This document shows positions 27,801 through 30,605 of a DNA stretch of 40,693 bases, one piece after another. The stretch lies in the NCBI GenBank assembly GCA_903861205.1, contig CAIOTC010000022.1, positions 66,025 through 106,717 on the forward strand, given 5' to 3'. Position 1 is the first letter of the stretch, and each line of letters starts with the position of its first letter. The notes below the pieces were generated by a model, which worked only from the letters and a program-made list of their open reading frames with translations, did not search any database and had not been told where the DNA came from. This DNA is from an uncultured bacterium. GTDB lineage: Bacteria; Patescibacteriota; Minisyncoccia; Phycocordibacterales; DATDWN01. Position numbers and translations under genes: made by a program.

Positions 27801-27968
27801 ATAGGGGTAATTATAAAAAGTTCTTTGATACGAAATTGCGAATTTGCCACAGAGAAAAGTCTCAAAATGATTTAAATTTTGATATTTCTCGCTGTGGCAA
27901 AACGAAAGCGAGCCAAATACAACAGCAAAGCGACTCTGTTTGGAAAACAATGTCGCAAGGAGACAACC

Positions 27969-28691
27969 ATGAGCGATTTAATGCTCGATGTTGACCAGGC
28001 CGGTGAGTTGAAGGCTGCGTTTCGGCGTGGCGATTGGACCAACGCGGAAATCAAACGCGCTTGTGAAGGAAACTTCCTAGCGCAAGTGCGCAAGGTTTTG
28101 CTGGGTCAAGCGCAAATTGTCGATGTGGTGAAAAAGGTCACGGAAGTTGTGAAAGCGGTCAAAAAAGTCCTGACCCCATTCATCACCATCACAACCGGCG
28201 GAACGACTACCGATCAGCTTGTCGTAGACATCAAAGCGAACAAGAACGAGAACGGAGTTGCGGACGAAGTTTCGGACTACGCCAAAAGCATGATGACAAA
28301 CAAGGCGTTCACCATCTCGAAAGAGGTGGGGACTGCCGATTTGGTCGCGCTGACTATCGCCGAGCTTGGCTTCGCCTCGAGCCCGCGCACGGACGAGTTT
28401 ATGACCGCCGAGTTCTGTGCCAAATGGAGCGCGGAAAATCTCGACGGCATGGTCATCGAACTCTGTCAGCCAGAGGATGGTCCTCAACTGCGCAAGCAGT
28501 GGAAAGATCAGCCGAAAGGCATGGCGGTTTGGTTGGCCATGAAGCGTATTTCTGATTCCGGCGGCGTTCCGCGCGTTTGGCGCGTTGAGTGCCTCTCCGA
28601 CGGTCCTCGGTGGCTGTCTGGCATTTGGGCCCGCCCCGGCCGTCGCTGGGTTCTCGGCGATCGGGTCGTCTTTCGTTTCCGCAAGATTTGA
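27969..28691 (+). CDS. DGR target (variable) protein with C-terminal VR, probably CLec-like fold
   Basis: AAGGAG RBS, ATG 27969; the VR encodes almost all of the last ~46 codons; no signal peptide. Confidence 0.9.
   Translation: MSDLMLDVDQAGELKAAFRRGDWTNAEIKRACEGNFLAQVRKVLLGQAQIVDVVKKVTEVVKAVKKVLTPFITITTGGTTTDQLVVDIKANKNENGVADEVSDYAKSMMTNKAFTISKEVGTADLVALTIAELGFASSPRTDEFMTAEFCAKWSAENLDGMVIELCQPEDGPQLRKQWKDQPKGMAVWLAMKRISDSGGVPRVWRVECLSDGPRWLSGIWARPGRRWVLGDRVVFRFRKI
28550..28684 (+). repeat. DGR variable repeat (VR)
   Basis: 135-bp ungapped match to 29036-29170; 22 of 23 mismatches are at TR adenines. Confidence 0.97.
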
Positions 28692-28747: not shown

Positions 28748-28773
28748 GTCCCGCACTTCGGTGCGGGACTTTT
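28748..28773 (+). terminator. Post-VR hairpin (homing element and/or terminator)
   Basis: gtcccgcac-ttcg-gtgcgggac followed by tttt. Confidence 0.7.
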
Positions 28774-29035
28774 CTATATTATAAAAATAAGTTAAGATGA
28801 AAGCGGTAGTAGGCAAATCTGCCGGCGACAAAATTTCCGGTGGCCGAATCCAGTATCCATGCATCGAGAGTGTCGGCGAGTTACTTTTCCGGCATAGTGA
28901 TGTGTGAGATTTTGAAAAAATGAAGATACTTGGCGCGCTGTATTGAGTGATTTTGATCACGCATAAAATTCAACTCCGAGAGTATTAAAATTTCAAGGAG
29001 TGGTGTATAGGATGATGCGGCGCGCGTTAAACTTG

Positions 29036-29170
29036 TTCTGATTCCGACGGCAATCCGAACGTTTGGAACGTCGAGTGCAACTCCGACGGTCATCGGTGGC
29101 TGAATGGCAATTGGGCCAACCCCGACAATCGCTGGAATCTCGGCAATCGGATCGTCTTTCGTTTCCGCAA
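29036..29170 (+). ncRNA. DGR template repeat (TR)
   Basis: Ten AAY triplets in the target frame, 29 adenines, non-coding context. Confidence 0.97.
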
Positions 29171-29200
29171 ATCTCCTCATTTCCTCGCGAGACACATAAT

Positions 29201-29548
29201 TTATCTTGCGAGGTTTTGTTTTTCAACTTGACCGTACCAACCACCTATCATTTTGCCGATGTTATTGAGTTTTTCGGAAATCTCGGCGTATTGTTTTAAT
29301 TCCAAAAGATTCATCTCCCATGCGATGTGAATGAATACTTTTATAATATCCACTTTAGCTATGGATTTTTTCAAATAAGGAAGCTTGTCGGTTTTTTGCA
29401 AAAATCCAGCGATGGATAAATTTTCAATTATTTCCACAAACAAGTTGTCTATTTTCAAACCGATGGAGTATCGCAGTGGTTTTGGAAATTTTAAAAATAA
29501 TTTATTCCACTTGATATACAAATCTTTAATATGAACAATAACTGGCAA
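29201..29548 (-). CDS. avd: Accessory variability determinant (Avd-like four-helix bundle); start uncertain
   Basis: FPKPLRYSIGLKI..IGKMIGGW signature; lies between TR and RT. Confidence 0.88.
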   Translation of the reverse strand: MPVIVHIKDLYIKWNKLFLKFPKPLRYSIGLKIDNLFVEIIENLSIAGFLQKTDKLPYLKKSIAKVDIIKVFIHIAWEMNLLELKQYAEISEKLNNIGKMIGGWYGQVEKQNLAR

Positions 29549-29557
29549 AAAGGATGC

Positions 29558-29566
29558 GGGGGGGGG
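29558..29566. repeat. G9 homopolymer between the divergent avd and RT starts
   Basis: Nine consecutive G in an otherwise AT-rich region. Confidence 0.9.
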
Positions 29567-29579
29567 TCTTTGTAGTCAT

Positions 29580-30605
29580 TTGATTAAAAAATTTAATATT
29601 GTCTACGACGATATCATATCTACAGAAAATTTACTATTGGCGTGGAAAGAGTTTTTGAATGGCAAGCGTAAAAGGAAAGATGTGCGAACCTTTGAAATAA
29701 AATTGGCTGATAATATTTTTGATTTGCGTGATTCTCTCAAGTTTGGCACCTACAAACACGGATCATACCTTGCTTTTACGGTTCACGATCCGAAAAGGAG
29801 AAATATACATAAAGCAAGCGTCAGAGACAGGTTACTTCACCGGGCAATTTATAGAAAGCTTTATCCACCGTATGACAAGATTTTTATTGCTGATTCTTAT
29901 TCGTGTCGTGACAACAAAGGAATTCACAAGGCTCTTGGTCGTTTCAAAAAATTTTATTGGAAAGTGAGCAAAAATAACAGACGGACGGCATGGGTTTTAA
30001 AATGCGATATCAGAAAATTTTTTGATTCTATTGACCACCAAATACTGGTATCAATTTTGTCCAAAAAAATAGCAGACCAAAATATTTTGTTACTTCTGGA
30101 AAAAATTATCGCAAGTTTTGAAAAAACTTCTGGCAGAGGAATACCACTTGGTAATTTAACTTCTCAACTGTTTGCTAATATTTATATGCACGAATTTGAT
30201 CAGTTTGTAAAACAAACGCTTAAAATTAAATATTACATCCGCTACGCCGATGATTTTGTTTTTCTGTCGCAAAGCAAACCGGAACTGGAAAATTTTTTGC
30301 CGAAAATCAAAAAATTTCTGGAAAACGAGCTGGAGCTCGACCTGCATCCGAACAAAGTTTTCATCAAAACCTTTTCTTCCGGGGTTGATTTTCTCGGCTG
30401 GGTCAATTTTCCACACCACAGGGTTTTGCGGACAGTGACAAAAAGAAGAATGTTGAAAAAGTTGGCTAAACCGAGCAATGGCTCGTTCGCCCGATCCGCC
30501 AAAGGTGGATTTAGGGAAAATAATACGAAACCTGAAACAATCCAGTCGTATCTCGGATTGTTGGGTCACGGGAATACATATAAGATTCAAAATTTGATTT
30601 TATAA
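29580..30605 (+). CDS. DGR reverse transcriptase; start uncertain
   Basis: PKRRNI, RDRLLHRAI, LKCDIRKFFDSIDH, GIPLGNLTSQLFAN (GxxxSQ), RYADD, GVDFLG. Confidence 0.95.
   Translation: MIKKFNIVYDDIISTENLLLAWKEFLNGKRKRKDVRTFEIKLADNIFDLRDSLKFGTYKHGSYLAFTVHDPKRRNIHKASVRDRLLHRAIYRKLYPPYDKIFIADSYSCRDNKGIHKALGRFKKFYWKVSKNNRRTAWVLKCDIRKFFDSIDHQILVSILSKKIADQNILLLLEKIIASFEKTSGRGIPLGNLTSQLFANIYMHEFDQFVKQTLKIKYYIRYADDFVFLSQSKPELENFLPKIKKFLENELELDLHPNKVFIKTFSSGVDFLGWVNFPHHRVLRTVTKRRMLKKLAKPSNGSFARSAKGGFRENNTKPETIQSYLGLLGHGNTYKIQNLIL

What the first reader, a model, noticed from the sequence alone, without database searches (positions are those of the whole stretch)
29531..29582. One G9 tract could switch both avd and RT on or off
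Seen: avd (-) and RT (+) are head-to-head and each currently has only a TTG start near its 5' end. A plus-strand ATG at 29531 reads MNNNWQKGCGGGSL* and a minus-strand ATG at 29579 also hits an early stop; both cross the G9 run at 29558-29566. With G8 (or G11) the ATG at 29531 joins the RT frame (MNNNWQKGCGGGLCSHLIKKF..) and the ATG at 29579 joins the avd frame (MTTKTPPASFLPVIVH..) at the same time. With G10 a different ATG (29554) is in frame for RT only. Inference: slipped-strand phase variation of one homopolymer in overlapping antisense 5' ends would gate the whole mutagenesis machinery and freeze a selected VR. Poly-G tracts may already be noted in CPR DGR surveys; the dual-strand frame coupling is the point to check.
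Basis: partly seen in the sequence, partly recalled or inferred. Interest (0 to 1): 0.9.

Follow-up and report, generated by a model that had tools for sequence, protein, structure and literature searches.

The report
Repeat-tract switch on a mutagenesis retroelement
A run of nine G's sits where the two helper genes of a targeted-mutation system (a diversity-generating retroelement) meet head to head, and related bacteria carry an unstable repeat at the same spot, which probably lets cells switch the mutation machinery on and off at random.

Summary
G9 (29558-29566) lies between divergent avd (-) and RT (+) of a complete DGR. It is the longest G/C run in the 883.6-kb genome. With G8 or G11 both flanking ATGs join their genes; with G10 only the RT ATG at 29554 does.

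The tract is a family feature. 75 of 109 Patescibacteria loci and 59 of 71 metagenome loci carry a simple repeat at this junction. The motif changes between close relatives: poly-G, (GA)n, (GT)n, (CT)n, (CTGT)n. In two pairs with identical 400-nt flanks, the only difference is one G.

Repeat-free relatives have an in-frame avd ATG in 28 of 30 loci. Repeat-bearing ones have it in frame in only 35 of 131, and most have no other start codon.

Best reading (about 0.65): a slipped-strand on/off switch of Avd. RT is gated too in lineages where it has no start codon downstream of the repeat. In this window RT keeps a TTG at the family's usual start position, so its gating is doubtful.

The dual-strand coupling is real (25 of 28 relevant loci). 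It arises because each ATG is the antisense of an in-frame His codon of the other gene. Read evidence here is weak: one G10 contig at depth 4. I found no published description.

The parts
29558..29566 (.). G9 tract (C9 on the avd strand): the proposed hypermutable switch
   Evidence: It is the longest G/C run in the genome. One run's contig has G10 here.
29201..29548 (-). avd body, listed as a 115-aa ORF from TTG 29548. Pfam bAvd covers residues 14-105.
29549..29579 (-). Probable true 5' end of avd: ATG at 29579, a short leader and the C-tract. It is one base out of frame with the body at C9.
   Evidence: Repeat-free relatives L011 and L016 start avd with the same first three residues in frame, and their avd and RT start codons overlap.
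29580..30605 (+). DGR reverse transcriptase. The TTG is at the family's canonical start position. It contains the IPLGNLTSQ motif.
29531..29575 (+). Short plus-strand ORF from ATG 29531 across the tract, ending at TAG four bases before the RT TTG. It joins the RT frame at G8 or G11. The ATG is the antisense of the avd His6 codon.
29554..29556 (+). Second plus-strand ATG, in the RT frame at G7 or G10.
29036..29170 (+). Template repeat (TR)
28550..28684 (+). Variable repeat (VR) at the 3' end of the target gene. 22 of 23 mismatches to TR fall at TR adenines.
27879..28691 (+). Target gene ORF as listed (start codon uncertain). No Pfam hit.

Best explanation
The G9 run is a hypermutable simple-sequence repeat placed in the N-terminal coding leader of avd, which is at the same time the 5' leader of the divergent RT gene. 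Slipped-strand gain or loss of one G during replication moves the avd ATG (29579) in or out of frame with the Avd four-helix body. A population therefore holds heritable, reversible ON and OFF cells for DGR mutagenesis, since Avd is needed by DGR RTs (established knowledge of the BPP-1 system, recalled).

As assembled (G9), avd is OFF or at best weakly made from TTG 29548. At G8 or G11 avd is ON, and RT also gains an ATG start. At G10 only RT gains an ATG. RT can probably still start at TTG 29580 in every phase.

Shown here: the position-specific, motif-independent conservation of a repeat; tract-only differences between identical loci; and frame disruption confined to repeat-bearing loci. Inferred: switching within clones, its effect on protein levels, and its effect on VR diversification.
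For: 1. Position conserved, motif not. 75 of 109 unique Patescibacteria loci (the window's own locus included) have a repeat within 170 nt upstream of RT codon 13. The types are G 52, AG 11, GT 5, CT 5, CTGT 1 and C 1. Among metagenome loci, 59 of 71 unique loci have one: G 54, GT 5. Outside that junction window there are 13 repeats in 340,412 nt and 1 in 191,178 nt.

2. Motif turnover on the RT tree. On an RT tree of 103 rows the repeat label needs at least 27 changes. Well-supported small clades mix G, CT, GT, CTGT and none.

3. Near-identical pairs. Of 7 pairs with flanks at least 95% identical, 3 differ at the tract. L151 (G9) versus L173 (G10) and L172 (G10) versus L180 (G11) have 400 nt of 100% identical flanks. 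L151 reads a full avd; L173 is frameshifted.

4. Frame states. 28 of 30 repeat-free loci with an avd hit have an in-frame ATG within 15 codons of the body. The 2 exceptions carry G7. Among repeat loci an ATG beyond the repeat is in frame in 16 of 73 and 19 of 58. In the genome set, 54 of 73 repeat loci have only an out-of-frame ATG beyond the repeat. 42 of those 54 also have no TTG or GTG between the repeat and the avd body.

5. Sister pair. L024 (no repeat) has an in-frame avd ATG and RT ATG overlapping in 18 nt. L026 carries an insertion with C9 and stops after 26 codons. In silico it reads a full homologous Avd at C10.

6. Complementary placement. Repeats inside RT occur in 8 of 34 junction-repeat-free loci and in 0 of 75 others. 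In L106 the RT is split into two frames at such a repeat.

7. Own organism. One contig from a lake-water run has G10 where the window has G9.
Against: - No raw reads were available. The single G10 contig has depth 4.1 and may be an error.
- Consensus assemblies cannot show switching within a clone.
- An in-frame fraction of about 1/4 to 1/3 is also what a non-coding tract would give by chance. The coding argument therefore rests on missing alternative start codons and on homology with repeat-free relatives.
- The avd ATG beyond the repeat is the antisense of a conserved RT His codon in 57 of 72 loci. Its presence alone does not prove that it is used.
- The window has an in-frame TTG for avd just after the tract (12 of the 54 OFF relatives have a TTG or GTG there). 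That TTG would give a complete bAvd domain.
- The strong strand bias (poly-G on the RT-sense strand 106 times, poly-C once) is not predicted by a pure 'any unstable tract' model.
- Related loci are not independent, so the p-values overstate.
Confidence: 0.65

Rival explanations
1. The repeat is a non-coding regulatory or structural element of the divergent avd/RT control region. It could act as a leader or promoter spacer, as non-B DNA (G-rich, GA, GT tracts), or as a G-rich leader of the TR-RT transcript. Under this reading Avd starts downstream of the tract at TTG or another codon, and frame relations to the outer ATGs are incidental.
For: - The G-rich strand is almost always the RT-sense strand.
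- In 34 of 75 repeat-bearing genome loci and 48 of 59 metagenome loci, RT has its own ATG downstream, so the tract lies in the RT leader.
- The in-frame fraction of outer avd ATGs (35 of 131) is close to the chance value of 1/3.
- The outer avd ATG can be explained by a conserved RT His codon.
- The window has a TTG right after the tract.
Against: - 42 of the 54 OFF loci have no ATG, GTG or TTG between the repeat and the avd body.
- Repeat-free relatives always use the outer ATG in frame: 28 of 30.
- L026 becomes a full homologue of L024 Avd at one extra base.
- The motif changes among G, GA, GT, CT and CTGT, which argues against a sequence-specific site.
- The distance from the tract to the RT ATG varies from about 9 to 32 nt (read), which argues against a fixed ribosome-binding role.
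- The consensus promoter scan does not put the tract in a -35/-10 spacer, and the scan found no more sites than shuffles (5 versus 3.0 +/- 1.7).
Confidence: 0.15
2. Programmed recoding. The tract makes RNA polymerase or the ribosome slip on the C-run or Pro codons, so a constant small fraction of Avd is made from any tract length. This would be an attenuator rather than a heritable switch.
For: - Most assembled loci are out of frame, yet the DGRs look maintained. In the window, VR/TR mismatches are A-specific.
- Homopolymers of 9-13 are the commonest form.
- Slippage on long homopolymers is known (recalled, not checked here).
Against: - The needed shifts are split about evenly between the two directions: 29 versus 25 and 25 versus 14.
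- The same site holds dinucleotide and tetranucleotide repeats, for which such recoding is not established.
- DNA-level length differences between identical loci are seen.
Confidence: 0.08
3. For this window only: the assembled G9 is a homopolymer miscall. The real genes are simply an in-frame overlapping pair (G8), with nothing variable.
For: - Depth in the four runs that hold the locus is only about 4-7.
- The one contig that spans the tract disagrees with the window.
- Repeat-free relatives do have overlapping in-frame ATG starts.
Against: - The disagreeing contig has G10, not G8.
- 93 of 131 independent assemblies of related loci lack an in-frame ATG beyond the repeat, which miscalls cannot explain.
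- Tract lengths of 8 to 13 show no preference for one residue class mod 3.
Confidence: 0.07

Closest known systems
Simple-sequence-repeat contingency loci (slipped-strand phase variation), e.g. poly-G/C tracts in the 5' coding regions of Neisseria, Haemophilus and Campylobacter surface genes (recalled, not checked in a paper here)
   Same: - A homopolymer or short repeat lies in the 5' coding part of a gene.
- Length varies between near-identical sequences.
- Assembled alleles are a mix of in-frame and out-of-frame.
- Some lineages have lost the repeat and sit in frame (L011, L016, L024).
   Different: - The gated gene is not a surface or restriction-modification gene. It is the accessory protein (and in some lineages the RT) of a targeted hypermutation system.
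- The hosts are Patescibacteria with otherwise almost repeat-free genomes: 1 G/C tract of 8 or more in 883.6 kb.
- Switching itself was not observed.
Haemophilus influenzae hifA/hifB fimbrial switch: one (TA)n tract between divergent genes controls both (recalled)
   Same: One repeat tract between two head-to-head genes affects both at once.
   Different: - There the tract sets the spacing of overlapping divergent promoters.
- Here the tract lies in overlapping antisense coding leaders and acts by reading frame.
- Both genes are affected only in lineages where RT starts beyond the repeat: 28 of the 73 repeat-bearing genome-set loci with an avd hit; 25 of those 28 share a phase in which both have an in-frame ATG.
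Canonical DGRs (Bordetella phage BPP-1 avd-TR-brt; Legionella, Treponema, Bacteroides DGRs)
   Same: RT with the I/LGxxxSQ motif, a bAvd-family accessory gene, and a TR/VR pair with adenine-specific differences.
   Different: - The gene order is target-VR, TR, avd on the opposite strand, RT.
- avd and RT are head to head, with starts overlapping or a few bases apart, in 103 of 109 loci.
- A repeat tract sits at the junction.
- I found no paper reporting such a tract (term searches inside PMC8144416 and PMC11661182). Paul et al. 2017 on CPR DGRs (PMC5436926) is not held and was not read, and supplements are closed.

Membership tests
Diversity-generating retroelement (DGR) | Reverse transcriptase of the DGR clade with the (I/L)GxxxSQ motif | tested here: met
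   RVT_1 at 1.5e-25. 'IPLGNLTSQ' is in the translated RT. 8000 homologues, the named ones from Patescibacteria.
Diversity-generating retroelement (DGR) | TR/VR repeat pair whose differences fall at TR adenines | tested here: met
   135-nt pair with 23 mismatches, 22 at TR A (22 of the 29 A's changed).
Diversity-generating retroelement (DGR) | Accessory variability determinant (Avd) | tested here: met
   Pfam bAvd PF22296 at 3.2e-11, above its cut-off. A divergent adjacent avd is present in 103 of 109 related loci.
Diversity-generating retroelement (DGR) | Ongoing mutagenic retrohoming (VR heterogeneity in a population) | tested here: inconclusive
   Only contigs at depth 4-7 were available. 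Contigs of X1, X3 and X4 match the VR without differences.
SSR contingency locus (phase variation) | Simple repeat, longer than the genome background, within a coding 5' end or promoter | tested here: met
   G9 is the longest G/C run in the genome. It lies between the avd ATG 29579 and the avd body.
SSR contingency locus (phase variation) | Tract length polymorphism among otherwise identical sequences | tested here: met
   In relatives: L151/L173 and L172/L180 have identical 400-nt flanks and differ by one G, and L154/L176 also differ at the tract. That is 3 of 7 near-identical pairs. In the window's own organism there is only one low-depth contig with G10.
SSR contingency locus (phase variation) | Length change switches expression of the gene | not testable with these tools
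   Only the reading-frame consequence was shown in silico.
SSR contingency locus (phase variation) | Reversible switching at high rate within a clonal population | not testable with these tools
   No raw reads were served, and the organisms are uncultured.

The most novel reading that the evidence does not exclude
Patescibacteria (CPR) DGRs are generally under a heritable stochastic switch: an unstable repeat controlling a hypermutation machine. The repeat has been gained, lost and replaced with a different motif many times at the avd/RT head-to-head junction. In junction-repeat-free lineages it sits instead inside the RT, in the loop before motif 4. Where the two genes overlap in the codon-aligned antisense register, a single tract switches Avd and RT together. 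This would give populations alternating phases of diversification and fixation of the variable protein.
Probability: 0.55. Interest if true: 0.88.

Novelty: new variant of a known kind. Interest (0 to 1): 0.82.

Why it matters
How DGR mutagenesis is regulated is largely unknown. Uncontrolled diversification of a working ligand-binding protein should be costly. A repeat-tract switch on avd/RT would give a simple, testable answer for the phylum in which DGRs are most common.

It would also explain why many DGR loci show little within-sample VR diversity yet change between samples. Roux et al. 2021 consider 'alternating phases' as one model (passage seen in PMC8144416).

There are practical consequences:
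- Gene callers mis-start or truncate avd and RT at these tracts. The window's own RT is called 19 residues short.
- DGR surveys may score OFF alleles as defective elements.
- Tract phase could serve as a read-out of DGR activity state in metagenomes.

Tried and rejected
Explanations tested and dropped:
- Ribosome-binding site. I considered the tract as the RT ribosome-binding site. The distance to the RT start varies from about 9 to 32 nt, and the motif is not always purine-rich ((CT)n, (CTGT)n).
- Polypurine element. An early idea that the tract is a polypurine element died when (CT)n and (GT)n loci appeared.
- Promoter-spacer model. The consensus scan gives no excess of promoter-like sites (5 versus 3.0 +/- 1.7), and none has the tract in its spacer.
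- Known RNA family. Rfam found nothing over the tract.

Searches that found nothing or could not run:
- An exact-flank search for the window's own junction in metagenome contigs found 0 matches.
- There are no RNA runs for this locus, so expression, transcript ends and slippage were not examined.

Read cover, reported here only as the tool requires:
- In runs X3 and X4 no contig covers about 29505-29740.
- In X2 two contigs end and begin inside the tract.
- In X2 no contig covers 28488-28631 (part of the VR).
- These holes prove nothing.

Not attempted:
- Structure and complex prediction were not used, because they would not bear on the question.

Caveats on the counts:
- The count of about 30 of 120 RT homologues with a 'GGG' N-terminal extension was made by eye.
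- ON/OFF calls use ATG only beyond the repeat. They extrapolate the avd anchor from a tblastn hit without gaps, so single calls may be wrong.

Rows dropped or duplicated:
- L025 is an exact duplicate of L005. L098 is truncated.
- 6 rows were left out of the tree (L021, L085, L089, L100, L105, L106: short or frameshifted RT).
- 9 of the 80 metagenome loci were dropped for too little upstream sequence or as exact duplicates.
- L023 and L134 are the same sequence in the two sets.
- L041 (poly-C 51 next to Ns) and L089 (Ns) are probably assembly artefacts but are counted as listed.

Full report
**1. The observation**

The window carries a complete DGR on a Patescibacteria-type genome (G000: 883,597 bp, 24 contigs, GC 43%). 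Its parts are:
- a target ORF ending in a VR (28550-28684);
- a TR (29036-29170), with 22 of the 23 VR/TR mismatches at TR adenines;
- avd on the minus strand (29201-29548; bAvd 3.2e-11);
- RT on the plus strand (29580-30605; RVT_1 1.5e-25).

Only 31 nt lie between the two TTG codons, and that stretch contains G9 at 29558-29566.
- At G8 or G11, ATG 29531 joins the RT frame and ATG 29579 (minus) joins the avd frame.
- At G7 or G10, ATG 29554 joins RT only.
- At G9, none does.

G9 is the only G/C run of 7 or more in the window. It is also the longest in the genome, whose spectrum falls 304, 26, 6, 0 for lengths 5 to 8.

**2. The tract is a family feature**

*First sign.* Among the 120 best RT homologues, about 30 (by eye) carry a called N-terminal extension containing GGG.

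*Loci collected.* I gathered DNA from three sources:
- 21 loci from species-representative genomes;
- 30 loci from a 401-genome sample of the phylum, in which 77 genomes had an RT match;
- 60 further matches from that same search.

After dropping one exact duplicate and one truncated locus, 109 remain, the window's own locus included.

*Architecture.* avd is divergent and adjacent in 103 of 109.

*Repeats at the junction.* I defined a repeat as G/C of 8 or more, A/T of 10 or more, 6 or more dinucleotide units, or 4 or more tetranucleotide units. I scored it within 170 nt upstream of RT codon 13.
- Genome set: 75 of 109 loci have one: poly-G 52, (AG)n 11, (GT)n 5, (CT)n 5, (CTGT)n 1, poly-C 1.
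- Metagenome set: 59 of 71 unique loci have one: G 54, GT 5.
- Outside the junction window there are 13 repeats in 340 kb and 1 in 191 kb.

*Tract lengths.* Poly-G lengths run from 8 to 13 with modes at 9-10. They show no preference for one class modulo 3.

**3. Motif turnover and complementary placement**

*Turnover.* On a FastTree RT tree of 103 rows (6 rows left out), the repeat label needs at least 27 changes. Two well-supported small clades show the mixing:
- L045 G, L059 none, L107 CT, L080 CT, L071 GT, L074 CT+GT;
- L063 GT, L087 CTGT, L090 G.

What is conserved is therefore a repeat at this place, not its sequence.

*Repeats inside RT.* Of the 13 'background' repeats, 8 lie inside the RT genes of loci that lack a junction repeat:
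- Six sit in the loop just before the G(I/L)P(I/L)GNLTSQ motif. Five of these are in frame, read as RE repeats or GGG.
- In the sixth, L106, the repeat is frameshifted, so the RT falls into two frames.
- The split is 8 of 34 versus 0 of 75 (Fisher p = 4.8e-5). Relatives are not independent.

**4. Is the repeat coding?**

*Repeat-free loci.* avd has an in-frame ATG 3-15 codons before the conserved body in 28 of 30. The two exceptions have G7. RT has an ATG at a fixed position, 11-12 codons before the DIIS motif.

*Repeat loci.* The same outer ATG exists but is mostly out of frame.
- Genome set: in frame 16, ATG between repeat and body 2, none 1, out of frame 54, of 73. Of those 54, 42 have no ATG, GTG or TTG at all between repeat and body.
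- Metagenome set: in frame 19, out of frame 39, of 58.

*The clearest case* is a sister pair:
- L024 has no repeat. Its avd and RT ATGs overlap within 18 nt.
- L026 has the same start but an insertion with C9, and it stops after 26 codons.
- With one more C, in silico, L026 reads a full-length homologue of L024 Avd.

*Locked in frame.* L011 and L016 are nested in the (GA)n clade and have lost the repeat. Both of their ATGs are in frame, with a 39-nt overlap.

**5. Variation between near-identical loci**

I found seven pairs with flanks at least 95% identical.
- Four pairs have the same tract.
- L151 (G9) versus L173 (G10) and L172 (G10) versus L180 (G11) have 400 nt of 100% identical flanks and differ only in the tract.
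- L154 versus L176 also differ there.

The frame consequences are:
- L151 reads a full avd and L173 does not.
- In L172/L180, two alternative ATGs serve two of the three phases. The window's RT leader resembles this.

For the window's own organism only Logan contigs of four lake-water runs from one study were served, at depth 4-7. One contig spans the tract and has G10. That is weak evidence.

**6. RT gating and the coupling**

*RT start position.*
- In 34 of 75 repeat loci of the genome set, RT has its own ATG downstream of the repeat. In 11 more it has only GTG or TTG there.
- In the metagenome set, 48 of 59 have their own ATG.
- The window's TTG 29580 aligns exactly with that canonical start. 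A 64%-identical homologue has ATG there.
- So in the window the tract probably does not abolish RT translation. It only decides whether an ATG-started longer form exists.

*Loci where RT must read through the repeat.* In 28 genome-set loci RT has no start after the repeat.
- 25 of the 28 have a tract phase in which both genes have an in-frame ATG.
- The cause is geometric. Each ATG is the exact antisense of an in-frame CAT codon of the other gene: 57 of 72 nearest avd ATGs, and both ATGs in the window.
- The antisense frame over the first 22 avd codons is free of stops in 19 of these 28 loci. It is free in only 11 of the 45 loci whose RT has its own start. This fits real dual coding in the former.

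**7. Interpretation**

The best reading is a slipped-strand contingency switch on Avd, and on RT in some lineages. I put it at about 0.65. The rivals are:
- a non-coding leader or non-B-DNA element (0.15). The strong bias for the G-rich strand on the RT sense is unexplained and keeps this alive;
- constitutive recoding by slippage (0.08);
- for this window only, a homopolymer miscall (0.07).

None of the rivals accounts for three facts together: frame disruption confined to repeat-bearing loci, motif turnover, and tract-only polymorphism.

**8. Literature**

Full-text searches returned no paper describing this. They combined DGR or Avd terms, Patescibacteria or CPR with phase variation, homopolymer, simple sequence repeat, frameshift, slipped-strand and repeat tract.
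- For some searches I saw listings and abstract starts only.
- Term searches inside PMC8144416 and PMC11661182 found no mention.

Noticed in passing
window 28934-29024 (+): Sub-threshold Rfam match to RT-16 RNA (RF03019): 31.1 bits against a gathering score of 50, E 0.017. It lies just upstream of the TR and may be a structured part of the DGR template RNA.
   Followed up: no
L079, L093, L097, L099, L106, L111 (loop before the GNLTSQ motif); L103, L057 (other RT sites): Relatives without a junction repeat carry (GA)n or poly-G inside the RT coding sequence. L106 is frameshifted there. In L057 a (GA)8 near the C-terminus is followed at once by a stop.
   Followed up: partly
all junction repeats, RT-sense strand: There is a strong strand asymmetry. 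Poly-G occurs 106 times and poly-C once (probably an artefact). AG and GT are commoner than CT. This is unexplained.
   Followed up: partly
window 29573-29582: At G9 the short ORF from ATG 29531 stops at TAG four bases before the RT TTG. That spacing could allow termination-reinitiation at the TTG. This is speculation only.
   Followed up: no
window 29012-29580 (+): The TR lies upstream of avd on the opposite strand. A TR-RT transcript would therefore run antisense through the whole avd gene and include the G tract in its leader. No RNA data were available.
   Followed up: no
L104, L107-L110 RT, before the GNLTSQ motif: There are long low-complexity insertions (rich in G, N, D, R, E) in the same loop that holds the internal repeats. 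They explain the partial RT matches ending near residue 182.
   Followed up: no
L021 about 3180; L105 after RT residue 183: The L021 RT is split into two frames near residue 65 without a repeat. The L105 RT frame ends in stops after residue 183. These are possible decayed copies.
   Followed up: no
L008 986-1001 and 1483-1498; L041; L089: L008 has two further (CT)8 tracts 1.5-2 kb upstream of its RT. L041 (poly-C 51 beside Ns) and L089 (Ns between duplicated G-run segments) look like assemblies that broke at the tract.
   Followed up: no
window 29637 (RT residue 20): The database copy of this RT (P0001, 322 aa) starts 19 residues inside the conserved N-terminus. Gene callers mis-start these genes when the canonical start is TTG beside a tract.
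   Followed up: partly
window 28748-28769 (+): A terminator-like hairpin (9 pairs, 7 GC, followed by a T run) lies between the target gene and the TR.
   Followed up: no
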